Assembly: GCF_003418935.1 (NCBI RefSeq) | Contig: NZ_QVMT01000014.1 | Span: 27,143-91,142, forward strand | Direction: 5' to 3' | Origin: Emticicia sp. C21 | Lineage (GTDB): Bacteria; Bacteroidota; Bacteroidia; Cytophagales; Spirosomataceae | Length of the DNA: 64,000 nucleotides | Made by a program: the position numbers and the translations under genes | Notes under the pieces: generated by a model | The model's input: the letters and a program-made list of their open reading frames with translations, nothing else | Told to the model about the DNA's origin: nothing | Database searches by the model: none | Part shown: positions 22,663 through 34,124 of the stretch, one piece after another | How the letters are laid out: each line of letters opens with the position of its first letter | Numbering within the stretch: position 1 is the first letter of the stretch

Positions 22663-23961
22663 ATGGGCAAGCATATATCAAAACTTGAACGCCAGAAAAA
22701 TTTACAAGAAAAGCAGGCGCTCGAACAACAAATCAAAATAGCGCTTGAAAAAGCAGCTAAAATCAACGAGAGTTTTGTGGCAATTATCAATGAAGCTCTT
22801 GACCCAAGTCGAACAGACAATTATTGGAGTAATGCAAGATTTCGTTTTTTTATGGAATTTCTGGGTTATAACCAGAAGAGAAACAAGAAAGAAGTTTTTA
22901 AAAAATGGATTGAAAATTTAGTTTTTCTGACCGAAAAACTGGAGAGCAAAAATCCAAAGTGGTTTAAAGATACCTATTTTTTAGGTGCATTAATTCAGAT
23001 TTCCAAATACAGAAGTTTATGGATTCGTCCACTGGAGGAATGGAAACCAAAAACCAAAAGCGAGCACGAAAGATTTAAGGAATTAGTGGCTTTTTTATTT
23101 GCAGAATATCCTTTTCCAGCTTTTTTGAATTATATATTTTTTTATCAGGAAGATTTTTTCTTTATCCGTGATTTTATCTTTCTGGCACAAGGTGGTAGTA
23201 TCAAACATATGAATTCAAGCATTCCTCTAAGCCAAAAGATGAAAGTTGAATTTATGAGAAGCCCTGAAGGGTTTAGAGTATTTGAGGCTTTCAGACATGC
23301 ACAGGTATTGAGTTTGGGAGGAGATGAATTATTAGCTCATCGAATTGCCTACTCGTGGTTAGGTCGAAAAGAAAAGAGGGATGAACCCTTTTGGGAAAAA
23401 TTCATTCAAATCCTAATTGCAGGTGGAATGTTTAATTATGATAAAATTGGTGAATTAATAGACTATGTTCGCCATGAAATCAATGAAAATAAAGCCTATA
23501 CGCTAAAGGGCAGAACTTTAAACTCGCTTATCCGTCAGAGTGAGTTGTGGCATGAAGGCCTGACTTTCACCAAGGAACAAAGGATGGAAAAATTCGCAGT
23601 ATGGAAACCTCTATTTTCTGAATCTTTTGAGGTGATAGAGGGAGTTGGAGAAAAAGCCAATCAGTACAAAATGGTTGAGCTATTATCTAATAAAGAGTTG
23701 ATGGACGAAGGTAATAAAATGCATCATTGCGTTGCTACTTACAGCTCTTATTGCTCAAAAGGAAGAACCAGAATTGTATCATTACGAAAATACCAGTGTG
23801 GATTTGAAATGGAAAGACAGGCCACTATAGAAGTAAATCTGGCAAGTGGGAGAGTGGTGCAGGCAAAATATCGCTACAATAAGCCAATTAGCGAAAAAGC
23901 ACAGAGTTTATTAACCCAATGGGTTGATGCTCAAGGATTTAGAATAGATAAGTATTTATAA
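22663..23961 (+). CDS. PcfJ-like domain protein
   Basis: 432 aa. The C-terminal region (LMDEGNKMHHCVATYSSYCSKGRTRIVSLR) resembles the conserved EG..M.HCV..Y core of the PcfJ-like family, as I recall it. Assigned from memory of the motif only. Confidence 0.45.
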   Translation: MGKHISKLERQKNLQEKQALEQQIKIALEKAAKINESFVAIINEALDPSRTDNYWSNARFRFFMEFLGYNQKRNKKEVFKKWIENLVFLTEKLESKNPKWFKDTYFLGALIQISKYRSLWIRPLEEWKPKTKSEHERFKELVAFLFAEYPFPAFLNYIFFYQEDFFFIRDFIFLAQGGSIKHMNSSIPLSQKMKVEFMRSPEGFRVFEAFRHAQVLSLGGDELLAHRIAYSWLGRKEKRDEPFWEKFIQILIAGGMFNYDKIGELIDYVRHEINENKAYTLKGRTLNSLIRQSELWHEGLTFTKEQRMEKFAVWKPLFSESFEVIEGVGEKANQYKMVELLSNKELMDEGNKMHHCVATYSSYCSKGRTRIVSLRKYQCGFEMERQATIEVNLASGRVVQAKYRYNKPISEKAQSLLTQWVDAQGFRIDKYL

Positions 23962-23979
23962 GATTATTAAAATAAAACA

Positions 23980-24996
23980 ATGAGAAAATTAGCGAGTATT
24001 CAAAGAATTATCGCACTGGAGCCAATTGAGGGTGCCGATAATATCTTGAAAGCTAAAGTTCTGGGTTGGGAGCTTGTGACTAAAAAAGATGAATTTGCTG
24101 TAGGAGATTTGTGTATCTATTGCGAGGTCGACAGTTTGCTCCCGGATAAGCCAGAATTTGAGTTTTTGAAGTCAAAAAGTTTTCGTATCAAAACTATCAG
24201 GCTTCGTGGGCAAATCTCACAAGGAATTTGTTTCCCTTTGAGTTTCCTACCAGAAAATTTTGAAATCGAAGAGGGAGCAGATTGTACAGACGTATTGGGT
24301 ATTATCAAATATGAACCACAAATCCCTGCGAATCTGGTTGGTATAATGAAAGGAGGTTTTCCTTCATTTATTCCTAAAACTGATGAAACCAGGGTACAGA
24401 TTTTACAAAATGTATTGGCAAAATATAAGGGTGAAGCCTGCTATATTGCCGAAAAACTGGATGGTAGCTCAGCAACTTATTATATCAGAGATGGTGTATT
24501 CGGGGTATGTTCAAGGAATCTTGAAATTGAAGAGGACAACGAAAATACCTACTGGAAAGTGGCCAAAGTATTGAATATTGAGGAAAAGCTGAGGTCTTTG
24601 AATGGTAATTATGCTTTGCAGGGCGAGCTGGTAGGGGAGGGTGTTCAGTACAATAAGATGAAAATGAAGGGAAATACTGTATTCTTTTTCAACCTTTTTA
24701 AGATTGATACTTTTGAGTACGTTTCTTATGCCGATTTTATGCAACTGATGAAAGCACTGGAATTGCCAACTGTACCAGTATTGAATGATAACTTTATCTT
24801 GCCGAACAGCATTACCGACTTGGTGGAGATGTCAAAGATTAAGTCAACCATTCAACCGGCAATGTGGGCTGAGGGTATCGTCATCAGGCTTCTGAATGAG
24901 AAACTGGATAAAACTCTTTTGAGAGATTTGGGCGGACACGGACGGATTTCATTTAAGGTAATTAATCCGGAATTTTTGTTGAAATTTAACGAATAA
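23980..24996 (+). CDS. ATP-dependent RNA ligase, DRB0094/DraRnl-like (Rnl5-type)
   Basis: 338 aa. The N-terminal segment (KLASIQRIIALEPIEGADNILKAKVLGWELVTKK.EFAVGDL) matches the DraRnl N-terminal OB-like module. A KxDG adenylation motif follows (AEKLDGSS). Confidence 0.65.
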   Translation: MRKLASIQRIIALEPIEGADNILKAKVLGWELVTKKDEFAVGDLCIYCEVDSLLPDKPEFEFLKSKSFRIKTIRLRGQISQGICFPLSFLPENFEIEEGADCTDVLGIIKYEPQIPANLVGIMKGGFPSFIPKTDETRVQILQNVLAKYKGEACYIAEKLDGSSATYYIRDGVFGVCSRNLEIEEDNENTYWKVAKVLNIEEKLRSLNGNYALQGELVGEGVQYNKMKMKGNTVFFFNLFKIDTFEYVSYADFMQLMKALELPTVPVLNDNFILPNSITDLVEMSKIKSTIQPAMWAEGIVIRLLNEKLDKTLLRDLGGHGRISFKVINPEFLLKFNE

Positions 24997-25015
24997 CCAT
25001 TTTAATATTACCCAT

Positions 25016-25684
25016 ATGAACTATCAGATTATCAGGGACGAAAAGCTTTTTCTCAACTTTATTGACTGGTTGCCGGAGCTTAAAAGAAATGAGACCTATT
25101 ATGTATCATTATTGGCTCGCAGCAAGTATCATCAGGCAGTAGGAAGCGATAAAGCTCAGGTAAAGCGATTCACAGCTACCAAAGATTTTCTCTTTGATAA
25201 GGTGAAACAACTGGAATGTGAATTGGGTACGTATAAATATAAGGGTGTAGGTATTCCGCAAGAGGCTTTGGCACTATATATCAGCCTGAATCCACGTGAT
25301 ATGGAGAAGGCCTGCAAGAGCGCTTTAATACGATTTGCTGAACTGATTACCAAAGAATATAACGGGTATAACCCACATCAGGAAGTATTATCAGAGATAC
25401 AGAAGTCGTGTACCAGGAAGGTATATTTTGACCTTGATTTCGATAAAGTAGATATTACAGAAACTTTAACAGAGATTAAGAACTATATCAACGAAGATTG
25501 TCTGACAGTATTGAGAACCCGGGGTGGCTTTCATTTATTGGTTGAATTATCCAGAATTGAAAAGCAATACACCAAAACCTGGCATCAATCGCTAGCTAAA
25601 ATAGAAGGTTGTGATGTGAAAGGAGATAATCTGATACCTTTGCCAGGATGCACACAAGGTGATTTTACACCACATTTTATGTAG
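25016..25684 (+). CDS. hypothetical protein (RNA-repair island)
   Basis: 222 aa with no P-loop or 2H motifs. Immediately follows the RNA ligase on the same strand. Confidence 0.45.
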   Translation: MNYQIIRDEKLFLNFIDWLPELKRNETYYVSLLARSKYHQAVGSDKAQVKRFTATKDFLFDKVKQLECELGTYKYKGVGIPQEALALYISLNPRDMEKACKSALIRFAELITKEYNGYNPHQEVLSEIQKSCTRKVYFDLDFDKVDITETLTEIKNYINEDCLTVLRTRGGFHLLVELSRIEKQYTKTWHQSLAKIEGCDVKGDNLIPLPGCTQGDFTPHFM

Positions 25685-25689: not shown

Positions 25690-26335
25690 CTATTAAATCA
25701 ACACAATACGCATGGAGAATTGCAGGAGTTGCTTGATGCTCCTGCTCCATGCAAACAACAAAAAGATAGCCTGAATGGACGAGGAGCTTGTCTTGAAAGC
25801 AAGTAATATTGAAAGGTGTTATAGGTTCGATTCCTATTGCCTCCGCAAAAATTAATAAGTAATACCGAGAGGTTTTTGGGCGGTCGCCGCGCGATTCGAT
25901 TCCTATTGCCTCTGCAAAATTAAATGAGCATGTACTCCAATCGGAAGAGAGAGCTGTCTCAGAAGCAGTTTAGTATTGGTTCGAATCCAATCATGCTTAC
26001 TAAATTCTAGCTTTTATAGCTGAATTTGTAAAAAAATAGGGAAAATAGTCCGTAAGTGGAAGCGGGGCGGTCTGTAAAACCGTTGCATTGTGCCTTGCAT
26101 GCGGCCGCCGCGCGGTTCGATTCATGCTTTTCCCACTATGGAGTTGATGAATCAGGGTAATTGCAATATTGCCGCAATTACCCTAGCTGCGACAGATTAT
26201 GCAGTTTGATTCATAATTTTTCAGTAAAAATAATAGAGAGTAAATCCTGCTGGGCAGGGCACTGCCTGCTACGCAGTTGGTTCATACATGAATGAAGTTC
26301 GAGTCTTCTGCTCTCTGCTGAGTGATGATTGTATT
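25690..26335 (+). ncRNA. cluster of degenerate tRNA-like / Y-RNA-like fragments (T-arm-containing remnants and stable hairpins)
   Basis: T-arm motifs: ATAGG-TTCGATT-CCTAT (25818-25834), a degenerate copy (~25893), ATTGG-TTCGAAT-CCAAT (~25975), GTTCGATTC (~26115) and GAAG-TTCGAGT-CTTC (~26296). A 14-bp interrupted hairpin lies at 25711-25753. A Tyr-like unit has a GGGAAAA/TTTTCCC acceptor. None of these folds as a full canonical tRNA. Confidence 0.4.
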
Positions 26336-26337: not shown

Positions 26338-26410
26338 GGAAAAATAGCCGAGTTGGTCAAGGCGTTAGTCTGAAACACTAAAGATGTAAGTTCGAATCTT
26401 ACTTTTTCCA
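26338..26410 (+). tRNA. tRNA-Phe-like (anticodon GAA), atypical all-A/T acceptor stem, CCA encoded
   Basis: Folds as GGAAAAA-TA-GCC(G)...D-loop GG...anticodon stem TTAGT/ACTAA, loop CTGAAAC, T-arm GTAAG-TTCGAAT-CTTAC, acceptor 3' TTTTTCC, then A and CCA. The D-stem has only 3 bp. Confidence 0.5.
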
Positions 26411-26505
26411 CCAAAAATTATGAGAAAGTATATAAAATGCTCTGGTTTGAAACGCAAACAACATAAACAGAGCACCATTTAATAAATGTTTTGCTGACTA
26501 AAAAA

Positions 26506-26576
26506 TACTGGATCGTTTAGAGGAAAGATATAACGATACGAACGTTAAGACCAAGGTTCGACTCCTTGTCCGGTAA
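26506..26576 (+). ncRNA. tRNA-like element (Arg-type ACG anticodon arm, irregular D-arm)
   Basis: Acceptor TACTGGA/TCCGGTA; perfect anticodon arm TAACG-ATACGAA-CGTTA; perfect T-arm CAAGG-TTCGACT-CCTTG. The D region does not form a canonical stem. Confidence 0.4.
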
Positions 26577-26622
26577 CAAATAAGTAAAAAGCTATTATAT
26601 TGATTGTTTAAATAAACGTAAA

Positions 26623-27129
26623 ATGATACTTGCAGTAGATGTTTTTTATAAACAGAGTAGCGCTAAAATAGTAGGATTGATTTTTAATGATTGGAATGAT
26701 GCCAAATATGCCCAGAAAATTGAAAAGTTTAGAAACGATATAGCCGATTATGAGCCAGGGGCATTCTATAAACGAGAGTTGCCATGTATTATGGATATTC
26801 TCACAGACCTGGATCTGACACAACTGAAGTATATAATAGTAGATGGCTATGTATTTCTGGATGATGATGGGAAACCTGGACTAGGGGCGCATTTATATGA
26901 AGCACTACCAATAAAGGTTCCGATAATAGGTGTAGCTAAGACTTCTTTTGCCAACAATAAAAAGTACGTGGCGGAGGTATTTAGGGGCATAAGCCAGAAA
27001 CCATTGTTTATTACTGCCATAGGAGAGGATTTAACAAATGCTGCCGCTATGGTACACAGCATGTCTGGAGAATATCGCTTTCCGACTATGCTAAAAGAGC
27101 TGGACGACTTCACAAAAGTGATACGGTAG
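26623..27129 (+). CDS. nfi: endonuclease V-like protein (divergent)
   Basis: 168 aa. Conserved EndoV blocks are present with E. coli-like spacing: A-VDV (catalytic Asp), YEPGAFYKRE (the FRE block), IVDGYV (the VDG block), and PIIGVAKTSF (the GVAK block). The His-Pro-Arg block after the VDG motif is replaced. Confidence 0.55.
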   Translation: MILAVDVFYKQSSAKIVGLIFNDWNDAKYAQKIEKFRNDIADYEPGAFYKRELPCIMDILTDLDLTQLKYIIVDGYVFLDDDGKPGLGAHLYEALPIKVPIIGVAKTSFANNKKYVAEVFRGISQKPLFITAIGEDLTNAAAMVHSMSGEYRFPTMLKELDDFTKVIR

Positions 27130-27302
27130 TAACAGAATAAAAGTTTTTGGAAAATATTTTCAGTTGCAAATATTTGACTATCAGATGTTTGTCGTAATGC
27201 TAAGAGAATATTTTTTACTACGCAAAAAGACTGCGTAGGTGGTGTGAACTTTTGTAGCATCAAATTGATAATTAAGTTCTTTAATAATGATAAAAAGAAG
27301 TG

Positions 27303-27440
27303 CCGTAGAACAGAGTTACTTCGCTTTAGGAGCCGTGTGTCATTGGTTCGAATCCAATCTGCCTGACTAAATAAGTCATTCAGGCAGTAGCTCAGTCCGG
27401 TAGAGCAACGTAAAAGGCTCTTTTCGCTCTTTGCCTTCTT
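27303..27440 (+). ncRNA. circularly permuted tRNA-like module 1 (candidate YrlA-type Y RNA)
   Basis: Order along the strand: T-arm ATTGG-TTCGAAT-CCAAT (27342-27358); closed acceptor hairpin CTGCCTGA-13nt-TCAGGCAG (27359-27387); TA; D-arm GCTC-AGTCCGGTA-GAGC (27390-27406). The flanking helix GGAGCC (27329-34) / GGCTCT (27416-21) covaries with module 2. Confidence 0.45.
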
Positions 27441-27445
27441 TAAAA

Positions 27446-27521
27446 TCTGGGTGTTATGCAAATGGTTATACAACGGTGTTTTGGAGACATCGGTTCGCTG
27501 GTTCGAATCCAGCTACCCAGA
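27446..27521 (+). ncRNA. tRNA-like element (Pro-type TGG anticodon loop, irregular core)
   Basis: 7-bp acceptor TCTGGGT/ACCCAGA; D-arm TATG-CAAATGGT-TATA; anticodon arm GGTGT-TTTGGAG-ACATC; T-arm GCTGG-TTCGAAT-CCAGC. There are 4 extra nt between the D and anticodon stems. Confidence 0.4.
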
Positions 27522-27693
27522 CTATCAAGTGTCGTAGAGAAGTCATACCTCGTTCCAAGGGTTGAGATATAGGTAGTTACCGCAAGATACAAGTCCTATC
27601 TGCAAAGAATTGCAGTGGTCGATATTAAGACGCAACCGTGCTCATGAAAGATGAGCCCATAGCAGACTGCTCGCTTGTTACCTTGATTATTTC

Positions 27694-27783
27694 GCTCGGT
27701 TGGGCAAATTGGTTAAGCCGCCACTCTTTCACAGTGGAGATTACGGGTTCAACCGCGGTGGCGGACCACCCCCGTACCGAGTA
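27694..27783 (+). pseudogene. tRNA-Glu-like (TTC) element with a 16-nt hairpin insertion in the T-loop
   Basis: Acceptor GCTCGGT/ACCGAGT; 3-bp D-stem GGC/GCC; perfect anticodon arm CCACT-CTTTCAC-AGTGG; T-stem ACGGG/CCCGT enclosing a 23-nt loop that contains hairpin CCGC-GGTG-GCGG. Confidence 0.4.
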
Positions 27784-27814
27784 CATGAAGTTTTAAAATT
27801 TAACAGTTAATGCA

Positions 27815-28129
27815 ATGAAAAATGATGTTATCAGATATTTCTTGGTAAACTCTGAAGAGACCGGAAGACATATTGTCACTTCTTTCCGCACAGGCAGAAA
27901 ATATTATATTGAGCCTATCGGTAATGGAAGAATGGCAGATTGGGGAAGTTATAATCCAGGTACGGGTAATATAGAAAATAAGAAAGGAGCAGGAAAGCAC
28001 ACAGGCTCTGTTATGGCCGAAGATTCTGTAATTACACCAGAAAACGGATTCGTGAATATTCATTTGATTGAAAGCGGAAGTCCTTATTCAATCATTGATG
28101 AAATGGATGCAAAACATCCGAGTATATAA
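27815..28129 (+). CDS. hypothetical protein (within tRNA-like array)
   Basis: 104-aa ORF between tRNA-like modules with no recognisable motif. Whether it is really coding is uncertain. Confidence 0.3.
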   Translation: MKNDVIRYFLVNSEETGRHIVTSFRTGRKYYIEPIGNGRMADWGSYNPGTGNIENKKGAGKHTGSVMAEDSVITPENGFVNIHLIESGSPYSIIDEMDAKHPSI

Positions 28130-28142
28130 ATTAAAAATAAGC

Positions 28143-28275
28143 AAGTGTCGTAGACAAGAGATACTTCGCATTGATAACGCAGAGGTCGCACGTTCGAGTC
28201 GTGCATAGATTTCGGTCTATTAGCTCAGGTGGTTAGAGCACTTAAAAGCCTCTTTTCGCTATTTACCTTGCTTAT
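28143..28275 (+). ncRNA. circularly permuted tRNA-like module 2 (candidate YrlA-type Y RNA)
   Basis: T-arm GCACG-TTCGAGT-CGTGC (28188-28204); acceptor hairpin ATAGAT-TTCG-GTCTAT (28205-28220); TA; D-arm GCTC-AGGTGGTTA-GAGC (28223-28239). Flanking helix AGAGGT (28181-86) / GCCTCT (28248-53). Confidence 0.45.
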
Positions 28276-28357: not shown

Positions 28358-28549
28358 CAATCAAATGCCATTGAATGGCTTTGGTTAATTACCCGATTAG
28401 GCAAATGCTGTGACTAAGCTGTGACTAATGCCTAATCAGGGTACAATGAGGTGCCGTAAAAAAGTGATACTTCGCTTGGTGACCAGAAGAAATTCTGGAA
28501 GGTTCGAATCCTTAAACACACTTTTTGCTTTTTGCCCTCATTTTAAGAT

Positions 28550-28622
28550 TACCTCATAGCTCAGTCGGTAGAGCAGCACCCTGTTAAGGTGATGGCCGTT
28601 GGTTCAACCCCAATTGAGGTAG
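28550..28622 (+). tRNA. tRNA-Asn (anticodon GTT)
   Basis: Acceptor TACCTCA/TGAGGTA; TA-GCTC-AGTCGGTA-GAGC; anticodon loop CTGTTAA; T-arm GTTGG-TTCAACC-CCAAT; discriminator G. Confidence 0.8.
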
Positions 28623-28649
28623 CATTTTTAGTCAATGCTGTGATTATAC

Positions 28650-28722
28650 AATCGGATCGTCTAATTGGTAAAGACATCGGGATTTGGCCCCGAAGATTGA
28701 GGTTCAAGTCCTTATCTGATTA
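28650..28722 (+). tRNA. tRNA-Gln (anticodon TTG)
   Basis: Acceptor AATCGGA/TCTGATT; D-arm GTCT-AATTGGTAA-AGAC; anticodon arm TCGGG-ATTTGGC-CCCGA; T-arm TGAGG-TTCAAGT-CCTTA. Confidence 0.8.
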
Positions 28723-28739
28723 CTGAATAGTTTATTTAT

Positions 28740-28813
28740 TACTTTGTAACTCAGTTGGTTAGAGTACCATCCTTTTAAGATGGGAGTCGTCAGTTCGAGC
28801 CTGACCAGAGTAA
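28740..28813 (+). tRNA. tRNA-Lys (anticodon TTT)
   Basis: Acceptor TACTTTG/CAGAGTA; TA-ACTC-AGTTGGTTA-GAGT; anticodon arm CCATC-CTTTTAA-GATGG; T-arm GTCAG-TTCGAGC-CTGAC. Confidence 0.8.
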
Positions 28814-28886
28814 CATCAGGTGCCGTGGATAAGGGTTACTTCGTCTCTAAAACTCTGTTGACTCTTATCGCTTATTGCCCTGAAAT

Positions 28887-28958
28887 GGTCTGATAACTCA
28901 GTGGTAGAGTTGTTTTCTGATACGAAACAGGTCGAAGGTTCGAATCCTTCTCAGACTA
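28887..28958 (+). tRNA. tRNA-Ile (anticodon GAT)
   Basis: Acceptor GGTCTGA/TCAGACT; TA-ACTC-AGTGGTA-GAGT; anticodon arm GTTTT-CTGATAC-GAAAC; T-arm GAAGG-TTCGAAT-CCTTC. Confidence 0.8.
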
Positions 28959-28978
28959 CAATGATTATTTGTTTTTAC

Positions 28979-29051
28979 TACTCTGTAGCTCAGTTGGAAG
29001 AGCGTCATCCTTCTAAGATGAGGGTAATTGGTTCGAATCCAATCAGGGTAA
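28979..29051 (+). tRNA. tRNA-Arg (anticodon TCT)
   Basis: Acceptor TACTCTG/CAGGGTA; TA-GCTC-AGTTGGAA-GAGC; anticodon arm TCATC-CTTCTAA-GATGA; T-arm ATTGG-TTCGAAT-CCAAT. Confidence 0.8.
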
Positions 29052-29187
29052 CATCAAGTGCCGTAGAGAAGAGTTACTTCGTCCGCTAATAGGGGAGGAA
29101 TAGCGAAGTTGTAAAATCAGCAAGACTATCCAGTTCGATTCTGGCTTTGACATGCCCCGTCACTCTTTTCGATTTTTGCCTTGAATT

Positions 29188-29259
29188 GGTTTGATAGCTC
29201 AATGGTAGAGCGGTTCTCTCATAAGGAACAGGCCGATAGTTCGATTCTATCTCAGACTA
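29188..29259 (+). tRNA. tRNA-Met/fMet-type (anticodon CAT)
   Basis: Acceptor GGTTTGA/TCAGACT; TA-GCTC-AATGGTA-GAGC; anticodon arm GTTCT-CTCATAA-GGAAC; T-arm GATAG-TTCGATT-CTATC. Could alternatively be the lysidine-modified Ile2 type. Confidence 0.75.
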
Positions 29260-29333
29260 CAAGTTTGGTGCATCAAATACTTCCTCTCAGAACGGTTCTG
29301 AGATGGCGTTATTCAAACAAAATTTTTTCAACC

Positions 29334-30854
29334 ATGAAATTCAATATTTTGAATCGTGAGAAAAATACAGTTATCAATCACGCAGGAGCTAAAGCTTATA
29401 CACTTACTCCAGCTATGGAACTATACACCAGCGTGGTAACGAGTATCCTGTCAGATACTTTCTATGAAAAGGCTGATGATCGTCTGGCTCGTATTCAGGC
29501 GCTCATCCGTAAAAACGATGCCCAATTTGTAGCAAAACTGGCTGTATATGCCCGTGAAAAAATGTACCTGCGTTCAATCCCTTTGGTATTGCTGACAGAG
29601 CTGGCGCAAACCCATAAAGGTGATAATCTGGTAAGCCGTACGGTTGGCCGTGTGATTCAGCGTGCTGACGAAATTACCGAATTGCTGGCTTGCTACCAGA
29701 TGGCTAACCAGCGTAAAGAAACCAAAAAACTGAACCGTTTGTCAAAACAGATTCAGAAAGGTCTGGCTGAGGCTTTCAATAAATTTGATGAATACCAGTT
29801 CAGCAAATACAACCGTACAGGTACTGATGTAAAACTGCGTGATGCCTTGTTTCTGGTTCACCCAAAGGCAAAAAATGAAGCACAGCAAGTCATTTTTAAC
29901 AAAATTGCTAAAGATGAACTGGTTACAGCTCAAACCTGGGAAACTACTTTGTCAGCCGTGGGTCAGAATGATTTTGATTCAGAAACTCATAAACTGGAAG
30001 CAAAATCACAGGCATGGGAGCAACTGATTCTTAATGGAAAACTAGGATACATGGCTATGCTGCGTAACCTGCGTAACATTATTGAAGCGAACGTAAGCCA
30101 GGAGGCTATCGAAAAAGTATGTGCTACTTTGAGCAATGCTCGTGCAGTAGCTAATGCTAAACAATTTCCTTTCCGTTTCTTGTCAGCTTACCGAGGGGTA
30201 AAGCATCTGCAAAACGGACGGGTAAGCAATATTCTGACTGCTTTAGAAACGGCCGTTCAGCATTCGGCGAATAATATCCGTGGTTTCGATGCTCGTACGC
30301 GTGTAGTAATTGCTGCCGACGTATCAGGTTCAATGCAACGGGCAATTTCTCCAAAAAGTACTGTTCAGAACTTTGATATCGGTTTGATGTTGGCCATGTT
30401 GCTGCAAAACCGTTGCGAGGATGTAGTAACAGGTATGTTTGGAGATACGTGGAAAATCATTAGCGTGCCAAAAAACAATATTCTGGCAAACGTATTGGAG
30501 TTCCATCGTCGTGAGGGGGAGGTAGGTTATTCAACCAACGGACATCTGGTAATTCAGGATTTGATTAACCGAAGAAAAAAAGTTGATAAAATCATGATTT
30601 TTACCGACTGTCAACTTTGGAACAGTAATGGTGGAAGCCCGATTGCTCAGGCATGGGCCGAATACAAAAAAATAGCACCAAATGCTCGTTTGTATTTGTT
30701 TGACTTGGCTGGATACGGAAATACTCCAGTTAATACAGTTAACGAGGGTTCTGTATTTCTGATGGCCGGATGGTCAGATAAAATTTTTGACATTCTTACA
30801 GCTATTGAAGAAGGAAGCAATGCAATTGCTGAAATCAATAAAATTGAAATTTAG
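29334..30854 (+). CDS. rsr: Ro60-related protein (Rsr; TROVE domain + vWA/MIDAS)
   Basis: The vWA MIDAS motif DVSGSM and the Ro60-like blocks KQFPFRFLSAY, LRDALFLVHPKA and IMIFTDCQLWN align with metazoan Ro60 (RIHPFHILVAL / LLRLSHIKP / IFIVFTDCETN). The start was moved to the ATG at 29334 (MKFNILNREK) because the upstream part of track ORF 29181 overlaps tRNA-Met. Confidence 0.85.
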   Translation: MKFNILNREKNTVINHAGAKAYTLTPAMELYTSVVTSILSDTFYEKADDRLARIQALIRKNDAQFVAKLAVYAREKMYLRSIPLVLLTELAQTHKGDNLVSRTVGRVIQRADEITELLACYQMANQRKETKKLNRLSKQIQKGLAEAFNKFDEYQFSKYNRTGTDVKLRDALFLVHPKAKNEAQQVIFNKIAKDELVTAQTWETTLSAVGQNDFDSETHKLEAKSQAWEQLILNGKLGYMAMLRNLRNIIEANVSQEAIEKVCATLSNARAVANAKQFPFRFLSAYRGVKHLQNGRVSNILTALETAVQHSANNIRGFDARTRVVIAADVSGSMQRAISPKSTVQNFDIGLMLAMLLQNRCEDVVTGMFGDTWKIISVPKNNILANVLEFHRREGEVGYSTNGHLVIQDLINRRKKVDKIMIFTDCQLWNSNGGSPIAQAWAEYKKIAPNARLYLFDLAGYGNTPVNTVNEGSVFLMAGWSDKIFDILTAIEEGSNAIAEINKIEI

Positions 30855-30907: not shown

Positions 30908-30979
30908 GGAACATTGGTGAAATGGTTATCATCCTACCCTGTCACGGTAGAATCATGGGTTCGATTCCCATATGTTCCG
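30908..30979 (+). tRNA. tRNA-Asp (anticodon GTC)
   Basis: Acceptor GGAACAT/ATGTTCC; TG-GTGA-AATGGTTA-TCAT; anticodon arm CTACC-CTGTCAC-GGTAG; T-arm ATGGG-TTCGATT-CCCAT; discriminator G. Confidence 0.8.
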
Positions 30980-31112
30980 CGATAGAAACGTAGTTGAACC
31001 TGATGAGGGTTTCATTAAGGCCCCATAGTATTGGAGCAATTGCTTTCAATATGCTGTCAATGAGGGTTCTGTTAATTTATGTAGGTTCGAATCCTGCCAA
31101 GCTAATAAATAT

Positions 31113-31155
31113 GGGCTTGTCGTGTAATGGTTAACACAATGGACTTCCACTCCAT
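31113..31155 (+). pseudogene. 5' fragment of a tRNA-Gly-like (TCC) gene lacking a T-arm
   Basis: GGGCTTG-TC-GTGT-AATGGTTA-ACAC-A-ATGGA-CTTCCAC-TCCAT: acceptor 5' strand, perfect D-arm and anticodon arm. No TTCGA T-arm follows. Confidence 0.4.
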
Positions 31156-31453
31156 AATTTAGAAAACAAGTAAATCAGTCTGAAACTATTCGGGTGTTTT
31201 TACCTTCGCAAAAACACAGTTCAGTACAGACTTGCAAAGAGGAGGATACCGATAGATAGAGGTGATTGCTTCAATGCTGGCGACTACATATATTATAGGG
31301 TGGCTGTCTCGTGGTTACGAGAGACAAACAATTTAGAATTATAGACTAGCCCAAGGCTATTGAACCGATTATCGAAGTCCGTCTTAATCTGATTTCCGTT
31401 TCAATGAATCGGATAGTGTAAGACTGATTTTTAACAAAGTAATTATTAAAATC

Positions 31454-32548
31454 ATGAAAAATATACAAGTAAATGCCAATCAGGTAGCATTGGTTTTGAA
31501 AAATAAGGCTTTCAAGCGATTGCTTGGTGAGGGTTCTTATTGGTTTTGGGGAAATGAAGAAGTTTTTATATATGAGAAAGGAAATGCCTTTGCTGCTCCC
31601 GTTGAACTAAACGTGCTATTGCAACATCCTGAAATCACAGAGGCCTTGGATGTCATAGAGGTAAAAGATAATGAAATGATGGTTCAGTTTGAAGACAATC
31701 GCTTCAAAACTGTCTTTGGTCCGGGTAAATACGCTTTCTGGCGCGGTATTAAAAACTATACTTATACGGCTATTGATTTAAACAAAATCGAGATTACTGA
31801 AGATTTTAGCCCACAGCTAATCAGCACTAAATTATTGTCGTATGTGAGAAGTTATACTGTAGAGTCTTACGAAAAAGGAGTTTTGATTGTTGATGGTAAA
31901 TTTGTACGTGTGTTAGACGGAGGTACTTATTACTGGTGGAAAAATACCATCAGCATTCAGGTAGCTAAAGCGGATATGCGTCAATTGCAAATGGAGATTT
32001 CAGGACAGGAGATTCTGACGAAAGATAAAGCCAGCTTGCGTTTAAATGCCTTTGTGCAATATCGTATCACCGATATTGTGAAAGCGATGTATGAAAACAA
32101 AGACTACGAAAAACAAGTATATGTTGTATTGCAATTGGCTTTAAGAGAGTATATTGGTGGATTAACTTTGGACGAATTGCTGGATAAAAAAGATAGTATT
32201 GTGGATTTTGTATTGAAAAATACTGCCGACAAATTGGTAGGTTTGGGTATTGAAATCAAAGGCTGTGGTATCCGTGATATTATTTTACCCGGAGACATGA
32301 AAGATATCATGAATCAGGTATTGATGGCTGAGAAAAAAGCACAGGCCAATATCATTATGCCTAGGGAAGAAACCGCTTCTATGCGTAGCTTGTTGAACAC
32401 TGCCAAATTGATGGAAGAAAATGAAACCTTGTGGAAATTGAAAGAGATGGAATATGTAGAGAAAATCGCGGATAAAATCAATACTATTTCAGTTTCAGGC
32501 AATGGACAGATTCTCGACCAATTGAAGCAAATTTTTGTAAAAAATTAA
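31454..32548 (+). CDS. SPFH/band-7 domain protein with ~170-aa N-terminal extension
   Basis: The C-terminal half (QEILTKDKASLRLNAFVQYRITD...KGCGIRDIILPGDMKDIMNQVLMAEKKAQANII) is a typical SPFH/band-7 core. Confidence 0.7.
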   Translation: MKNIQVNANQVALVLKNKAFKRLLGEGSYWFWGNEEVFIYEKGNAFAAPVELNVLLQHPEITEALDVIEVKDNEMMVQFEDNRFKTVFGPGKYAFWRGIKNYTYTAIDLNKIEITEDFSPQLISTKLLSYVRSYTVESYEKGVLIVDGKFVRVLDGGTYYWWKNTISIQVAKADMRQLQMEISGQEILTKDKASLRLNAFVQYRITDIVKAMYENKDYEKQVYVVLQLALREYIGGLTLDELLDKKDSIVDFVLKNTADKLVGLGIEIKGCGIRDIILPGDMKDIMNQVLMAEKKAQANIIMPREETASMRSLLNTAKLMEENETLWKLKEMEYVEKIADKINTISVSGNGQILDQLKQIFVKN

Positions 32549-32555
32549 AAATAGG

Positions 32556-32583
32556 GTAGGGGTTGAAAATTTTCAACCCCTAC
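32556..32583 (+). promoter_or_regulatory. perfect 28-nt palindrome between the SPFH gene and rtcB
   Basis: GTAGGGGTTGAAAA|TTTTCAACCCCTAC. Forms a 12-bp stem with a 4-nt loop as RNA. There is no downstream T-tract. Confidence 0.4.
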
Positions 32584-32597
32584 ATAAAATACTTTAA

Positions 32598-34124
32598 ATG
32601 GAAACAACGATTTCATTAGAAGAAATATTAGCATTAGGGAATATACCAGAAAACCTGCAAGGTAGTTTCCTGAGAATAGCTAACGGATTGCATCAAAAGG
32701 CTGAATATCCAAAAGAAAAGGTATTAAGAATGTTTGCTGAAATGTTGGCTAGCCCAAAGAAATTTGCCTATTCAAAAAATAAGGTAACTAACCTGGCAAA
32801 AGAGATTTTTGACCTAGAAAAGAAAGGGATGAAAGTCGAGCTTTCAGAAGAAGGCAAGACTTATTTACCTGCTGAGTCGCCTGTGTATGAGATGGAGGAA
32901 AAAGAAAAGCAAAAAACAGTTGCTTTTGATTTAAGAACATCTCCATTGCCATATCAGATTTACGGCGCTGAATATATCGAAGAGGGCGCATTGAAGCAAA
33001 TGGAAACTGCTTTGAGTTTGCCTGTGGCTGTAGCAGGTGCTTTAATGCCTGATGCCCATCAAGGCTATGGGCTACCTATCGGTGGTGTATTAGCTACGAC
33101 CAATAATACGGTTATTCCGTTTGCGGTCGAAGTAGACATTGCCTGCCGGATGTGTTTGTCAATTTTTGATATTCCAGGTGATTTTTTCAAACGTCAGCCG
33201 CATTTGCTGAAACGTGCTTTAGTAGAGAATACCAAGTTTGGTATGGGTGGAGAAACGGCTCACAAGTTTGATGAAAGTGTCATGGATAAAGCAGAATGGA
33301 CAGCCACAAAAATCATTCGTGATTTGAAAGATAAAGCTTATCGACAATTAGGTACCTCAGGTACTGGAAACCACTTTGTAGAGTGGGGTATTGTAGAGGT
33401 ATTTTCAGCTGATGATTTGCTGGCAGTACCTAAAGGCGAATATCTGGCGCTCCTATCTCATTCGGGTTCAAGAGGTTTTGGTGGGGCAGTAGCTAATCAT
33501 TATTCAAAAGTAGCTATGAAGAAAACCAAATTGCCAAAAGAGGCAGCTCATCTGGCATGGTTGGATATGAATACCGAAGAAGGGCAGGAGTATTGGATTG
33601 CTATGAATCTGGCAGGAGATTATGCTTCGGCCAATCACCACGAAATTCATAAGAAGATTGCTAAAATGTTGGGTGAACAACCTATAAAAATGGTTGAAAA
33701 TCACCACAATTTTGCCTGGAAAGAAAATTTGGCTGATGGTACAGAAGTAATTGTACATAGAAAAGGAGCAACACCTGCCAATCGCAATGACTTAGGGATT
33801 ATTCCTGGCTCTATGACTGACCCAGGCTTTATCGTTCGTGGTAAAGGTATAAGCGAATCATTAAATTCAGCTTCACATGGCGCAGGTCGTTTGATGTCGA
33901 GAACTAAAGCACTTAATTCTATAACTAATAGTGCCTTGAAAAAAGTATTAGAAGAAAAAGGAGTACAACTGATAGGTGGAGATTTAGATGAAGCACCAAT
34001 GGTTTATAAGAATATTGAAACGGTAATTGCTTCGCAAACCGATCTCGTAGAGATTTTGGCTAAGTTTAGCCCAAAGATTGTAAGGATGGCAGATGCCAAT
34101 CGCAAAGAAGGACGAGAGGATTGA
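32598..34124 (+). CDS. rtcB: RNA-splicing ligase RtcB family, with ~100-aa N-terminal extension
   Basis: RtcB hallmarks are present: MPDAHQGYGLPIGGV, DIACRMC, ENHHNFAWKE...VHRKGATPA and SHGAGR. Confidence 0.85.
   Translation: METTISLEEILALGNIPENLQGSFLRIANGLHQKAEYPKEKVLRMFAEMLASPKKFAYSKNKVTNLAKEIFDLEKKGMKVELSEEGKTYLPAESPVYEMEEKEKQKTVAFDLRTSPLPYQIYGAEYIEEGALKQMETALSLPVAVAGALMPDAHQGYGLPIGGVLATTNNTVIPFAVEVDIACRMCLSIFDIPGDFFKRQPHLLKRALVENTKFGMGGETAHKFDESVMDKAEWTATKIIRDLKDKAYRQLGTSGTGNHFVEWGIVEVFSADDLLAVPKGEYLALLSHSGSRGFGGAVANHYSKVAMKKTKLPKEAAHLAWLDMNTEEGQEYWIAMNLAGDYASANHHEIHKKIAKMLGEQPIKMVENHHNFAWKENLADGTEVIVHRKGATPANRNDLGIIPGSMTDPGFIVRGKGISESLNSASHGAGRLMSRTKALNSITNSALKKVLEEKGVQLIGGDLDEAPMVYKNIETVIASQTDLVEILAKFSPKIVRMADANRKEGRED

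What the first reader, a model, noticed from the sequence alone, without database searches (positions are those of the whole stretch)
22663..34124. Ro60(Rsr)-centred RNA-repair island with two RNA ligases and a tRNA / Y-RNA-like array
An ~11.5-kb co-oriented block lies between clpP and a NUDIX gene. On the + strand it encodes a PcfJ-like protein, a DraRnl-type ATP-dependent ligase (3'-OH/5'-P chemistry), an unknown 222-aa protein, an EndoV-like nuclease, a Ro60 orthologue, an SPFH protein, and RtcB (3'-P/5'-OH chemistry). In between are at least eight canonical tRNAs and several tRNA-like or permuted modules. Ro60-Y RNA-RtcB linkage is known in Salmonella (rsr-yrlBA-rtcBA) and Deinococcus. I do not know of a described locus that combines it with a second ligase of complementary end chemistry, EndoV, an SPFH protein and a multi-tRNA array. 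The combination suggests a module that buffers or repairs tRNA damage, for example from anticodon nucleases, or that acts as an anti-defence island.
Basis: partly seen in the sequence, partly recalled or inferred. Interest (0 to 1): 0.9.

Follow-up and report, generated by a model that had tools for sequence, protein, structure and literature searches.

The report
Ro60, Y-RNA and tRNA repair island
An Emticicia chromosome carries a tightly packed block in which six Ro60-partner (Y) RNAs are interleaved head-to-tail with 13 spare tRNAs, next to Ro60, two RNA ligases and helper enzymes; this is a widespread Bacteroidota version of a known but poorly understood RNA-damage response system.

Summary
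HMM searches confirm PcfJ, an Rnl5 (DraRnl/NgrRnl-type) ligase, a short EndoV, Ro60 (TROVE+vWA), a soluble SPFH protein and RtcB, all on the + strand between clpP and a NUDIX gene. The "unknown 222-aa protein" has a primase-polymerase (AEP) fold. The RNA array holds 13 ARAGORN tRNAs, 2-3 degenerate ones, one permuted tRNA-like element and six Y-RNA modules.

The six modules share a two-helix stem that covaries strongly across 37 aligned modules from 36 related loci. Two carry YrlA-type tRNA mimics. Each ends 3-14 nt (boundaries) before a tRNA.

The Ro60 clade was found in 431 species genomes, almost all Bacteroidota among the 80 examined. The same Ro60 plus multi-Y core is in 78 of the 81 loci examined; 50 have co-oriented tRNA clusters and 38 have RtcB. 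It also occurs on phage-like contigs.

Ro60-Y-RtcB, Band-7-tRNA-like-RtcB and alternative-ligase combinations were already catalogued by comparative genomics. I found no description of the interleaved Y-RNA/tRNA polycistron or of this Bacteroidota Y-stem family.

Most likely function: an RNA-damage, mainly tRNA-damage, backup-and-repair island. This is inferred, not shown. Verdict: new variant of a known kind.

The parts
22120..22153 (+). Bacteroidetes-type promoter-like site (TTTG about 22 nt upstream of TATCTTTG)
   Evidence: It is the only intergenic TAnnTTTG on the + strand between 21700 and 34200. This is a consensus match only and was not tested.
22400..22625 (+). Conserved leader ending in a terminator-like hairpin just upstream of PcfJ; possible attenuator or sRNA
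   Evidence: The block, including the hairpin AAAGCCCGACCTC...GAGGTCGGGCTTTTT, is conserved in L001-L004, that is across genera. No Rfam family matches it.
22663..23961 (+). PcfJ-like protein (432 aa; only the C-terminal ~110 aa match the family)
   Evidence: PF14284, E 4e-15. Homologues lie co-oriented near Ro60 in 8 related loci (9 including the window).
23980..24996 (+). Rnl5-type ATP-dependent RNA ligase (DraRnl/NgrRnl family): N-terminal OB domain plus nucleotidyltransferase
   Evidence: TIGR02306 scores 179.8 bits against a cut-off of 151. PF21189 and PF09414 match. NgrRnl 5cot matches at E 8e-56 with the KLDGS motif.
25016..25684 (+).
25926..26000 (+). tRNA-Leu(CAG)
   Evidence: ARAGORN; Rfam 53 bits.
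26039..26134 (+). Degenerate class-II tRNA-Tyr(GUA)-like element
   Evidence: Rfam tRNA scores 28.6 bits, just under the gathering score of 29. ARAGORN calls it only at a relaxed threshold. L001 and L002 have a called tRNA-Tyr at this place.
26235..26318 (+). Degenerate tRNA-Ser(GCU)-like element
   Evidence: Called by ARAGORN only at a relaxed threshold.
26338..26413 (+). tRNA-Phe(GAA), CCA encoded
   Evidence: ARAGORN; Rfam 75.6 bits; CCA tail.
26506..26577 (+). tRNA-Arg(ACG), divergent from the housekeeping copy at 39076
   Evidence: ARAGORN. Clearly divergent from the 39076 copy (34 of 72 positions invariant in the three-way alignment; array vs housekeeping-type Arg(ACG) copies are 55-60% identical).
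26623..27129 (+). Short-form endonuclease V
   Evidence: PF04493 scores 35.3 bits against a cut-off of 23.4. The D/E/D/K motifs (DV, FYKRE, VDG, GVAK) are readable in the sequence and in the alignment to 3goc. The family has 3350 clusters of ~167 aa.
27294..27441 (+). Y-RNA module Y1, with a YrlA-type permuted tRNA-like insert (T arm, acceptor-like hairpin, D arm)
   Evidence: CM R1, E 3e-13. Rfam YrlA scores 38.8 bits at 27334-27412. Fold.
27447..27522 (+). tRNA-Pro(UGG)
   Evidence: ARAGORN; Rfam 30.3 bits.
27524..27690 (+). Y-RNA module Y2 (long insert with no T arm); the weakest of the six
   Evidence: Exact 5' motif match. RNAduplex pairs its 5' and 3' strands at -13.9 kcal/mol. CM R1 gives only E 0.4 with filters off.
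27694..27767 (+). tRNA-Glu(UUC), atypical
   Evidence: ARAGORN calls it, but Rfam tRNA gives only 24 bits, below the gathering score.
27815..28129 (+). 104-aa protein of unknown fold embedded in the RNA array
28139..28273 (+). Y-RNA module Y3, with a YrlA-type tRNA-like insert
   Evidence: CM R1, E 1e-13. Rfam YrlA scores 39.5 bits at 28180-28245. Fold.
28286..28358 (+). tRNA-His(GUG)
28445..28542 (+). Y-RNA module Y4 (insert is a hairpin plus a T arm only)
   Evidence: CM R1, E 2e-16. Fold z-score -2.7.
28550..28623 (+). tRNA-Asn(GUU)
28650..28723 (+). tRNA-Gln(UUG)
28740..28814 (+). tRNA-Lys(UUU)
28814..28885 (+). Y-RNA module Y5 (minimal: stem plus conserved UUACUUCG apical loop)
   Evidence: CM R1 scores 69 bits, E 3e-19. 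Fold z-score -3.2.
28887..28959 (+). tRNA-Ile(GAU)
28979..29052 (+). tRNA-Arg(UCU)
29052..29186 (+). Y-RNA module Y6 (insert with a T-arm-like hairpin)
   Evidence: CM R1, E 2e-15.
29188..29260 (+). tRNA-Met(CAU) (Met, initiator or Ile2 identity not resolved)
29334..30854 (+). Ro60/Rsr orthologue (TROVE ring plus vWA domain with a DVSGS MIDAS motif)
   Evidence: PF05731 90 bits and PF25045 33.5 bits. Start codon inferred. PDB TROVE proteins 9l5y and 9kop match at E 1e-27.
30908..30980 (+). tRNA-Asp(GUC)
31060..31175 (+). Permuted tRNA-like element (order T arm, acceptor-like hairpin, D arm, anticodon-like arm) without the Y stem
   Evidence: The fold shows the four hairpins in that order. Rfam tRNA gives a partial hit of 25.9 bits. 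A similar T / hairpin / D block lies upstream of SPFH genes in L022, L029, L031, L045 and L071.
31176..31453 (+). Non-coding stretch before SPFH; candidate Band-7-associated RNA
   Evidence: Most SPFH genes of related loci are preceded by 300-600 nt of non-coding sequence with a T-loop motif and a shared AAAAAATGGTGA block. The alignment is poor, so this is weak.
31454..32548 (+). SPFH/Band-7 protein, apparently soluble
   Evidence: PF01145, E 8e-30. No hydrophobic N-terminal segment is visible on reading the sequence.
32598..34124 (+). RtcB RNA ligase (3'-P or 2',3'>P with 5'-OH) with a ~130-aa N-terminal extension
   Evidence: PF01139 scores 275 bits over residues 134-495. PDB RtcB entries match at E 5e-32.

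Best explanation
The island is a chromosomal RNA-damage response module built around a Ro60-Y RNA ribonucleoprotein. I propose the following mechanism; every step in it is inferred.

1. One + strand transcription unit starts at a promoter-like site near 22150. It passes a leader carrying terminator-like hairpins and then runs through PcfJ, Rnl5, AEP, the RNA array, Ro60, SPFH and RtcB.
2. Within the array, tRNAs and Y modules abut with gaps of 0-12 nt. Ordinary tRNA processing, by RNase P at each tRNA 5' end and RNase Z or trimming at each 3' end, would therefore release the six Y RNAs as the pieces between tRNAs.
3. The Y RNAs share a closing stem: a 7-bp helix, a bulged U, 2 bp, an internal loop with conserved CGUA, and an 8-9-bp helix. 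This stem docks on Ro60. Their variable tips (two YrlA-type tRNA mimics, one T arm only, one bare loop, two others) would give Ro60 different partners or act as tRNA decoys.
4. The 13-16 extra tRNAs have canonical anticodon loops. The one that can be compared with a housekeeping copy is divergent from it. Most read split codon boxes (Lys, Phe, Gln, Asn, His, Glu, Asp, Ile, Met), the classes usually hit by anticodon nucleases. They would refill or shield the tRNA pool.
5. RtcB would reseal 2',3'-cyclic-P / 5'-OH breaks. The Rnl5 ligase with the neighbouring AEP polymerase would handle 3'-OH / 5'-P nicks or fill gaps. EndoV may cut inosine-bearing or deaminated RNA.

What is shown: the sequence features, the covariation of the Y stem, and the conservation of the layout. 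What is inferred: transcription, processing, binding and physiological role.
For: Domain assignments are all confirmed.

The Y stem is a real structured RNA.
- On 37 minimal modules from 36 loci, 90.6% of cells are paired, against 62% after shuffling and about 45% with partners slid. Sixteen of 17 pairs show compensatory changes.
- Cognate 5'/3' strands pair at -17.0 kcal/mol, non-cognate at -9.4, over 270 unique modules.

The stem follows Ro60, not tRNAs.
- 78 of 81 loci have 1-8 copies, typically four, co-oriented with Ro60. These include Chryseobacterium and Flavobacterium loci with no tRNA array.
- CM R1 also hits within about 1.6 kb upstream of Ro60 homologues that are only 31-37% identical.
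- It hits nowhere else in the 64-kb window.

Geometry supports a shared precursor.
- All six window modules end 3-14 nt before a tRNA. Gaps through the array are mostly 0-26 nt.
- 57 of 232 modules elsewhere end 2-17 nt before a tRNA.
- There is only one intergenic promoter-type motif on the + strand.

The tRNAs look usable and distinct.
- U33 is present in 95% and R37 in 95% of 438 array tRNAs.
- Array tRNA-Arg(ACG) is clearly divergent from the housekeeping copy 12 kb away (55-60% identity between array and housekeeping-type copies) and evolves faster among Emticicia species.
- The anticodon census over 50 loci is headed by Lys-UUU, Phe, Gln-UUG, Asn, His, Arg-ACG, Glu and Asp. Gly, Ala, Val and Thr are rare.

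The neighbourhood is an RNA-repair one. Across the 81 loci (window included): RtcB in 38, WYL-WCX regulator in 33, PF04308 RNaseH-like in 24, AAA ATPase in 18, SPFH in 13, and RlaP, LigT and cREC_REC in 6 each.

Literature precedents:
- In Salmonella the rsr-yrlBA-rtcBA operon is induced by cleaved tRNAs, and YrlA has been suggested as a competitive inhibitor of the anticodon nuclease (PMC7790460).
- M. smegmatis YrlA is an RNase P substrate (PMC4201824).
- A tRNA L-array is co-induced with rtcB under translational stress (PMC8421152).
Against: - No expression, processing or binding data exist for this organism.
- Y2 is supported only by the 5' motif and a modest duplex.
- MFE z-scores of the large modules are not significant.
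- The window lacks RtcA, RtcR and the WYL regulator found in 33 related loci, so the inducing signal is unknown.
- EndoV and the AEP protein belong to large families that are mostly stand-alone genes elsewhere. They may be passengers.
- None of the eight island proteins (PcfJ to RtcB) matches a PADLOC defence model.
- Redundancy with housekeeping tRNAs could be shown for Arg(ACG) only.
- The anticodon skew could reflect codon usage of an AT-rich genome rather than nuclease targets.
- The key survey, Burroughs & Aravind 2016, could not be read. My view of what is already described is second-hand.
Confidence: 0.55

Rival explanations
1. General RNA quality control with passenger tRNAs. Ro60 and its Y RNAs work as in Deinococcus, tethering an exoribonuclease such as PNPase to degrade misfolded or damaged structured RNA under stress. 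The tRNA genes are an ordinary or spare tRNA operon. They sit there only because Y RNAs arose from tRNA genes by duplication and permutation, so the link is historical rather than functional.
For: - 31 of the 81 loci examined have no co-oriented tRNA cluster near Ro60, and many of them (the Chryseobacterium and Flavobacterium loci especially) show only Ro60 plus Y modules.
- Y inserts contain T and D arms, and some array tRNAs are degenerate. Both fit local birth and decay of tRNA-derived elements.
- The only biochemically established bacterial role of Ro60-Y RNA is PNPase tethering (PMC4201824).
Against: - About 5.5 tRNAs per 21-kb locus is far above the genome background (my estimate, not computed, is roughly 0.2 per 21 kb). 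22 loci have 10 or more.
- The precise head-to-tail abutment of Y modules and tRNAs recurs in several families.
- RtcB, LigT, RlaP and cyclic-phosphate receiver genes recur with this Ro60 clade. They point to repair of broken ends rather than decay only.
Confidence: 0.2
2. A module of phage origin that has been domesticated. Ro60, Y RNAs and a tRNA array are a phage counter-defence cassette against host tRNA-cleaving immunity. The Emticicia island is an old captured copy that now serves the host, or serves nothing.
For: - IMG/VR contigs L081-L083 carry Ro60 at 56-60% identity with Y modules and 11, 27 and 16 tRNAs.
- The L083 flanks encode a Cas4-like exonuclease, a CCA-adding enzyme, other nucleotidyltransferases and an HNH endonuclease.
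- Ro60, RtcB and tRNA sets are known in jumbo phages (PMC7824862).
- Array tRNAs evolve fast.
Against: - The island sits at the same site, HTH-clpP ... NUDIX-FAD oxidoreductase, in four Emticicia species. Flank identity is 75-88% and no integrase or phage structural genes were seen.
- Cultured phages in INPHARED hold only distant Ro60, below 36% identity.
- The chromosomal clade spans 431 species genomes.
- IMG/VR 'viral' calls may be misassigned islands.
Confidence: 0.15
3. A largely decaying or neutral tRNA gene graveyard. The array consists of pseudo-tRNAs and repeats with no role, and the protein genes act independently.
For: - Several elements score below tRNA thresholds: tRNA-Glu at 24 bits, tRNA-Pro at 30 bits, and the degenerate Tyr and Ser.
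- Cassettes come and go between Emticicia species.
Against: - 95% of 438 array tRNAs keep U33 and R37.
- Twelve of the 13 window tRNAs pass the Rfam gathering score.
- The Y stem shows compensatory substitutions in 16 of 17 pairs, which requires selection on structure.
- The layout is kept across orders of Bacteroidota.
Confidence: 0.05

Closest known systems
[quoted passage not shown]
   Same: - A Ro60 orthologue with co-oriented Y RNAs within 4 kb and RtcB downstream.
- At least one Y RNA carries a permuted T / acceptor / D tRNA mimic.
- A link to tRNA cleavage has been proposed.
   Different: - Six Y modules here, against two in Salmonella.
- A different closing stem: the Rfam YrlA model matches only the tRNA-like core at 39 bits against a gathering score of 69.
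- No RtcA and no sigma-54/CARF RtcR.
- The Y RNAs are interleaved with 13 tRNAs.
- Additional Rnl5, AEP, EndoV, PcfJ and SPFH genes.
Band-7/SPFH protein, b7a-tRNA and RtcB systems, and the Rot/TROVE systems of Burroughs & Aravind 2016. Known to me only through its abstract (from memory) and the summary in bioRxiv 10.1101/312249.
   Same: - An SPFH gene directly upstream of RtcB, preceded by tRNA or tRNA-like RNA.
- Co-occurrence with Rsr and YrlA.
- Alternative ATP-dependent ligases.
- RlaP, LigT and WYL neighbours in related loci.
   Different: - I could not check whether tRNA-Asp or the permuted element at 31060-31175 corresponds to b7a-tRNA.
- The papers I could read do not mention multi-tRNA arrays or Y-tRNA interleaving.
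[quoted passage not shown]
   Same: - A dense, co-oriented set of extra tRNA genes, 2.6 per kb.
- Patchy distribution.
- Association with rtcB.
- A proposed role in surviving translational stress or soaking up tRNA nucleases.
   Different: - 13-16 genes, below the >=20 used to define an array unit.
- Interleaved with Y RNAs and protein genes.
- Physically tied to Ro60, which those studies do not mention.
Phage tRNA sets with RNA repair enzymes (T4 Pnkp/Rnl1 against PrrC; jumbo phages with RtcB, Rnl1/2 and Ro60, PMC7824862)
   Same: Spare tRNAs, two ligase chemistries and Ro60 together. Related phage-like contigs carry the same Y stem.
   Different: Here the module is chromosomal, syntenic across species, and has no polynucleotide kinase-phosphatase.
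LigD-type ligase plus AEP polymerase pairing (bacterial NHEJ)
   Different: - The ligase is an RNA ligase of the Rnl5 family, not a DNA ligase.
- The two are separate genes.
- There is no Ku and no phosphoesterase domain.
- The AEP family is usually stand-alone elsewhere.

Membership tests
Bacterial Ro60/Rsr-Y RNA system | Protein with a TROVE ring domain followed by a vWA domain | tested here: met
   PF05731 scores 90.4 bits and PF25045 33.5 bits, both above their cut-offs. A DVSGS MIDAS motif is readable in the sequence.
Bacterial Ro60/Rsr-Y RNA system | Non-coding RNA genes on the same strand within about 4 kb of Ro60 (criterion of Chen 2014) | tested here: met
   Six modules lie 148-2040 nt upstream of Ro60 on the + strand. 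The same holds in 78 of 81 loci.
Bacterial Ro60/Rsr-Y RNA system | 5' and 3' ends form a long stem that carries the Ro-binding motif (GNCGAAN0-1G on the 5' strand in YrlA) | tested here: inconclusive
   The stem is strongly supported by covariation. The conserved 5'-strand motif is GYCGUAR, one base away from GNCGAA, so it is similar but not identical.
Bacterial Ro60/Rsr-Y RNA system | RNA physically bound by Ro60 | not testable with these tools
   Needs immunoprecipitation or a gel-shift assay.
Rfam YrlA (RF02553) | Score at or above the gathering threshold (69 bits) | tested here: not met
   The best hits are 39.5 and 38.8 bits, covering model positions 23-87 only, which is the tRNA-like core. 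The other four modules give no hit.
Rfam YrlA (RF02553) | Permuted tRNA-like domain: T arm, acceptor-like hairpin, D arm | tested here: met
   Met for Y1 and Y3 only.
rsr-yrlBA-rtcBA operon (Salmonella type) | RtcB co-oriented downstream of rsr | tested here: met
   RtcB lies at 32598-34124, 1.7 kb downstream of Ro60.
rsr-yrlBA-rtcBA operon (Salmonella type) | RtcA cyclase and a divergent RtcR (CARF / sigma-54) regulator | tested here: not met
   No such domains occur in any island ORF or in the flanks at 13.6-42.7 kb. There is also no WYL regulator in the window.
Band-7 / b7a-tRNA / RtcB system | SPFH/Band-7 gene adjacent to RtcB | tested here: met
   The SPFH gene ends 49 nt before the RtcB start.
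Band-7 / b7a-tRNA / RtcB system | Cognate tRNA-like RNA (b7a-tRNA) next to the Band-7 gene | tested here: inconclusive
   tRNA-Asp and a permuted tRNA-like element lie upstream of SPFH. Similar elements lie upstream of other SPFH genes. No b7a-tRNA sequence or model was available for comparison.
tRNA array unit (Tran et al. 2016 definition) | At least 20 tRNA genes at a density of 2 or more per kb | tested here: not met
   The density criterion is met: 13 tRNAs in 5.06 kb is 2.6 per kb. The count criterion is not: 13, or 16 with the degenerate elements. Only one related locus (L036) reaches 20 called tRNAs; several others have 17-18.
Rnl5 (DraRnl/NgrRnl) RNA ligase | N-terminal OB domain plus a nucleotidyltransferase domain with a KxDG lysine, and an equivalog HMM score above the cut-off | tested here: met
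   TIGR02306 scores 179.8 bits against 151. PF21189 and PF09414 match. KLDGS aligns with NgrRnl.
AEP / primase-polymerase superfamily | AEP catalytic fold with conserved acidic (DxD) and histidine motifs | tested here: met
Endonuclease V | Pfam Endonuclease_5 above its cut-off, and the catalytic D / E / D / K residues | tested here: met
   35.3 bits against 23.4. The motifs are visible in the sequence and in the 3goc alignment. The NCBIfam equivalogs are far below their cut-offs. This is a short-form subfamily.

The most novel reading that the evidence does not exclude
Y RNAs in this Bacteroidota clade are made by tRNA punctuation. They would be excised from a Y-tRNA polycistron by RNase P and RNase Z, in fixed proportion to a dedicated set of spare tRNAs. 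The varied tips of the Y RNAs, from full tRNA mimics to bare loops, would form a panel of decoys or adaptors that direct Ro60 (with RtcB and SPFH) to particular damaged tRNAs or to particular tRNA-cleaving toxins. That would make the island a self-contained system of immunity for the tRNA pool, shared between bacteria and their phages.
Probability: 0.2. Interest if true: 0.8.

Novelty: new variant of a known kind. Interest (0 to 1): 0.55.

Why it matters
What bacterial Ro60, Y RNAs and RtcB actually do is still unclear after more than 20 years. Only PNPase tethering in Deinococcus and tRNA-fragment induction in Salmonella are established.

This locus family adds several things.
- A Y-RNA stem model that works across Ro60 proteins of 31-95% identity.
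- A clade of at least 431 species genomes. By their titles the loci include Flavobacterium, Chitinophaga and Chryseobacterium, genera with cultured isolates and, for some species, genetic tools (from my own knowledge).
- A physical coupling of Y RNAs to spare tRNAs, which makes concrete predictions. Y-RNA ends should coincide with RNase P and RNase Z sites. The array should be co-induced with rtcB. Loss of the array or of Ro60 should sensitise cells to anticodon nucleases.

If confirmed, it would tie the two unexplained phenomena, tRNA L-arrays and bacterial Y RNAs, to one function.

Tried and rejected
Tried and negative:
- Rfam at gathering thresholds finds only tRNAs in the window. YrlA appears only below threshold.
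- No Pfam, NCBIfam or PADLOC hit for the 222-aa and 104-aa proteins.
- The sigma-70 promoter and terminator scan was uninformative: counts were near the shuffled expectation, and it uses the wrong promoter type for Bacteroidota.
- The strict two-box pattern TTTG-N17-21-TANNTTTG gave no hit in the island. Only the looser -7 search did.
- CM R1 with filters off scores the large-insert modules poorly and does not rescue Y2.
- MFE z-scores do not support the large modules. The support comes from covariation instead.
- The alignment of SPFH upstream regions is too poor to define a shared RNA.
- Literature searches for a description of Y-RNA/tRNA arrays in Bacteroidota found none.

Could not be done:
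- Burroughs & Aravind 2016 and Sim et al. 2020 are not held in the library. No supplementary files of Chen 2014 are held as text either.

Readings considered and rejected:
- A recent mobile island or prophage. Rejected because of synteny in four species and housekeeping flanks.
- Y modules as mere tRNA spacers. Rejected because they occur with Ro60 where no tRNAs are present.
- EndoV and AEP as defining parts of the system. Rejected because they are lineage-specific here and stand-alone elsewhere.

Full report
**What is in the sequence**

The window looks like a bacterial chromosome of about 38% G+C. The closest relatives of the region are Emticicia species (Spirosomataceae, Cytophagales): the Ro60 protein is 95, 92 and 86% identical in L001-L003.

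Between clpP (21065-21745, +) and a NUDIX gene (34141-34770, -), every feature lies on the + strand.
- PcfJ: PF14284, E 4e-15.
- A DRB0094/Rnl5-type ligase. TIGR02306 scores 179.8 bits, above its cut-off of 151. It matches Naegleria NgrRnl at E 8e-56, with the KLDGS adenylylation motif.
- A short EndoV: PF04493 above its cut-off, with the D/E/D/K motifs readable.
- Ro60: TROVE plus vWA_Ro60.
- An SPFH protein: E 8e-30.
- RtcB: E 1e-81.

Ro60 probably starts at ATG 29334. The longer TTG ORF overlaps tRNA-Met.

**The unknown 222-aa protein**

It has no Pfam or NCBIfam hit. It belongs to a family of 1393 protein clusters.

Two homologues elsewhere are stand-alone genes in housekeeping surroundings. 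The pairing with the Rnl5 ligase is therefore local to this lineage.

**The RNA array**

- ARAGORN finds 13 tRNAs between 25926 and 30980. Twelve reach the Rfam gathering score; tRNA-Glu does not.
- Relaxed ARAGORN adds degenerate Tyr- and Ser-like class-II elements.
- Reading the sequence revealed a repeated 5' motif. It occurs six times, all on the + strand within 27300-29081, against 0.01 expected. Five copies have a matching 3' motif.
- Each pair of strands closes a module of 69-163 nt (boundaries).
- Two modules enclose a T arm, an acceptor-like hairpin and a D arm. These give sub-threshold Rfam YrlA hits of about 39 bits against a gathering score of 69.
- The other inserts are a T arm only, a bare loop, and two different inserts.

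**Is the stem real?**

I fetched 80 loci around Ro60 relatives; the scan confirmed relatives at 431 candidate sites in the species-genome collection, of which the best 80 were kept. The 5' motif occurs 342 times in the 81 loci, co-oriented with Ro60.

Two tests support a conserved structure.
- For 270 unique modules, the cognate 5' and 3' strands pair at -17.0 kcal/mol on average. Non-cognate strands pair at -9.4 (Mann-Whitney p about 1e-126). Most positions show several kinds of pair.
- On an alignment of 37 natural minimal modules, 90.6% of cells are paired. The figure is 62% after shuffling and about 45% when partners are slid. Sixteen of 17 pairs carry changes on both sides.

The architecture is a 7-bp helix, a bulged U, two pairs (G-C, then a covarying C-G or U-A), an internal loop with conserved CGUA, an 8-9-bp helix, and a nearly invariant UUACUUCG.

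A covariance model built from that alignment (R1) behaves as follows.
- It finds five of the six window modules at E <= 3e-13 and nothing else in 64 kb.
- It also hits just upstream of Ro60 homologues that are only 31-37% identical, on IMG/VR contigs.

The module follows Ro60 even where there are no tRNAs, as in many Chryseobacterium and Flavobacterium loci. I therefore regard it as the Ro60-binding stem of a Y-RNA family that the Rfam YrlA model does not capture.

**Layout**

All six window modules end 3-14 nt before a tRNA. Using the model boundaries, tRNAs and modules abut with gaps of 0-12 nt. Examples are tRNA-Lys to Y5 at 0 nt, Y5 to tRNA-Ile at 1 nt, and tRNA-Arg to Y6 at 0 nt.

Only one intergenic Bacteroidetes-type -7 motif (TAnnTTTG) lies on the + strand in the whole block, at 22146. 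It is followed by a short ORF, terminator-like hairpins, and a leader conserved across genera.

This fits one long precursor cut by tRNA-processing enzymes, but nothing here shows transcription.

**Comparative picture**

The four Emticicia species keep the island at the same site, with flanks 75-88% identical. Cassettes differ: L001 lacks the Rnl5-AEP segment and EndoV, and the tRNA sets vary.

Across the 81 loci (the window plus 80):
- 78 have Y modules, typically four and at most eight.
- 50 have co-oriented tRNA clusters: 37 with at least 5 tRNAs, 22 with at least 10, and at most 20.
- 38 have RtcB.
- 33 have a divergent WYL-WCX regulator.
- 24 have a PF04308 RNaseH-like protein.
- 18 have an AAA ATPase.
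- 13 have SPFH, 10 the 104-aa protein and 9 PcfJ.
- 6-7 each have RlaP, LigT, a cyclic-phosphate receiver domain and a metallophosphoesterase.

None of these extra genes is in the window.

**The array tRNAs**

- Anticodon loops are canonical: U33 in 95% and R37 in 95% of 438 tRNAs. Only 8% encode CCA.
- The array tRNA-Arg(ACG) is clearly divergent from the housekeeping copy at 39076 (34 of 72 positions invariant in the three-way alignment; 55-60% identity between array and housekeeping-type copies).
- Among Emticicia species, array tRNAs are 76-99% identical, against 95-100% for that housekeeping gene.
- The anticodon census is headed by Lys-UUU (37 loci), Phe (35), Gln-UUG (30), Asn (30), His (28), Arg-ACG (24), Glu (24) and Asp (21). 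Gly, Ala, Val and Thr are rare.
- From general knowledge, these are largely the split-codon-box tRNAs that anticodon nucleases attack. This link is my inference.

**Phage connection**

Cultured phages hold only distant Ro60, below 36% identity.

IMG/VR contigs L081-L083 carry Ro60 at 56-60% identity, with Y modules and 11-27 tRNAs. L083 has phage-like neighbours: a Cas4-like exonuclease, a CCA-adding enzyme and an HNH endonuclease.

**What is already known**

- Chen et al. 2014 found YrlA-like RNAs within 4 kb of Rsr in more than 250 species. They deliberately discarded hits that overlapped tandem tRNA genes (PMC4201824).
- Wang et al. 2018 summarise Burroughs & Aravind 2016. That survey described Rsr/Y-RNA next to RtcB, Band-7 protein plus a tRNA-like RNA next to RtcB, swaps between the two, and Rsr/YrlA next to other ligase families.
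- Hughes et al. 2020 showed that tRNA halves induce the Salmonella operon. They suggested YrlA might inhibit the anticodon nuclease.
- Santamaria-Gomez et al. 2021 described tRNA L-arrays, also in Bacteroidetes, co-regulated with rtcB in Anabaena. They do not mention Ro60.

The gene combination is therefore a member of a catalogued class. I found no description of three things: the interleaved Y-RNA/tRNA polycistron, this Y-stem family, or its breadth in Bacteroidota. I could not read Burroughs & Aravind 2016 itself.

**Verdict**

My best explanation is a Ro60-Y RNA centred island for tRNA-pool backup and repair, matured by tRNA processing (confidence 0.55).

The rivals are plain RNA quality control with passenger tRNAs (0.2), a domesticated phage cassette (0.15), and decay (0.05).

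Novelty: a new variant of a known kind. Interest: 0.55.

Noticed in passing
window 22120-22625: A promoter-like TTTG / TATCTTTG site is followed by a 32-codon ORF (22177-22275), a terminator-like hairpin (~22295-22330) and a ~220-nt leader. The 3' part of the leader and a second hairpin are conserved upstream of PcfJ homologues in four loci, including another genus. It may be an attenuator or sRNA controlling the island. No Rfam family matches.
   Followed up: partly
L001, L005, L009, L011, L013 and 13 other loci: tRNA-Ile with a UAU anticodon occurs in 18 of 50 arrays. From general knowledge, most bacteria read AUA with a lysidine-modified CAU tRNA, so this would bypass TilS.
   Followed up: no
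window 32556-32583: A perfect 12-bp palindromic hairpin (GTAGGGGTTGAA AATT TTCAACCCCTAC) lies between the SPFH stop codon and the RtcB start. On the + strand the scan did not call it terminator-like (no T-run detected).
   Followed up: no
window 32598-32996: RtcB carries an N-terminal extension of about 130 aa with no Pfam match. The RtcB cluster in related loci has a similar length (median 484 aa).
   Followed up: no
window 27815-28129: A 104-aa protein gene sits inside the RNA array, after tRNA-Glu. It is conserved in 9 related loci (10 with the window) across Cytophagales, Chitinophagales and one Chryseobacterium locus, and in 126 protein clusters. It has no domain hit and no structural match.
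   Followed up: yes
L100 6001-7091: A short-form EndoV homologue in Sporocytophaga is immediately followed by a Tpt1/KptA RNA 2'-phosphotransferase gene. This hints that this EndoV subfamily may act on RNA elsewhere too.
   Followed up: no
window 26506-26577 and 26623-27129: EndoV lies 45 nt downstream of the array tRNA-Arg(ACG). From general knowledge, this is the one bacterial tRNA whose anticodon is deaminated to inosine. The adjacency may be a coincidence.
   Followed up: no
L095 7838-8687: In a MAG labelled Pyrinomonadaceae, a 62%-identical homologue of the AEP-fold protein is stand-alone and preceded by a tRNA-Arg(UCU). The family is unusually conserved (about 60% identity or more among the best 120 clusters listed) for a protein with no annotation.
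   Followed up: partly
L063: A contig binned as Williamsia (Actinomycetota) carries a Bacteroidota-type Ro60 at 61% identity, with Y modules and tRNAs. It is probably mis-binned, or else a horizontal transfer.
   Followed up: no
window 41979-42683 (-): An IS1-family transposase lies 8 kb downstream of the island. It is not obviously connected with it.
   Followed up: no
window 20341-20751 (-): An XRE-type HTH gene lies divergent from clpP at the left flank and is conserved in all four Emticicia loci. It matches generic 'control protein' and capH models in PADLOC. Whether it regulates the island is unknown.
   Followed up: no
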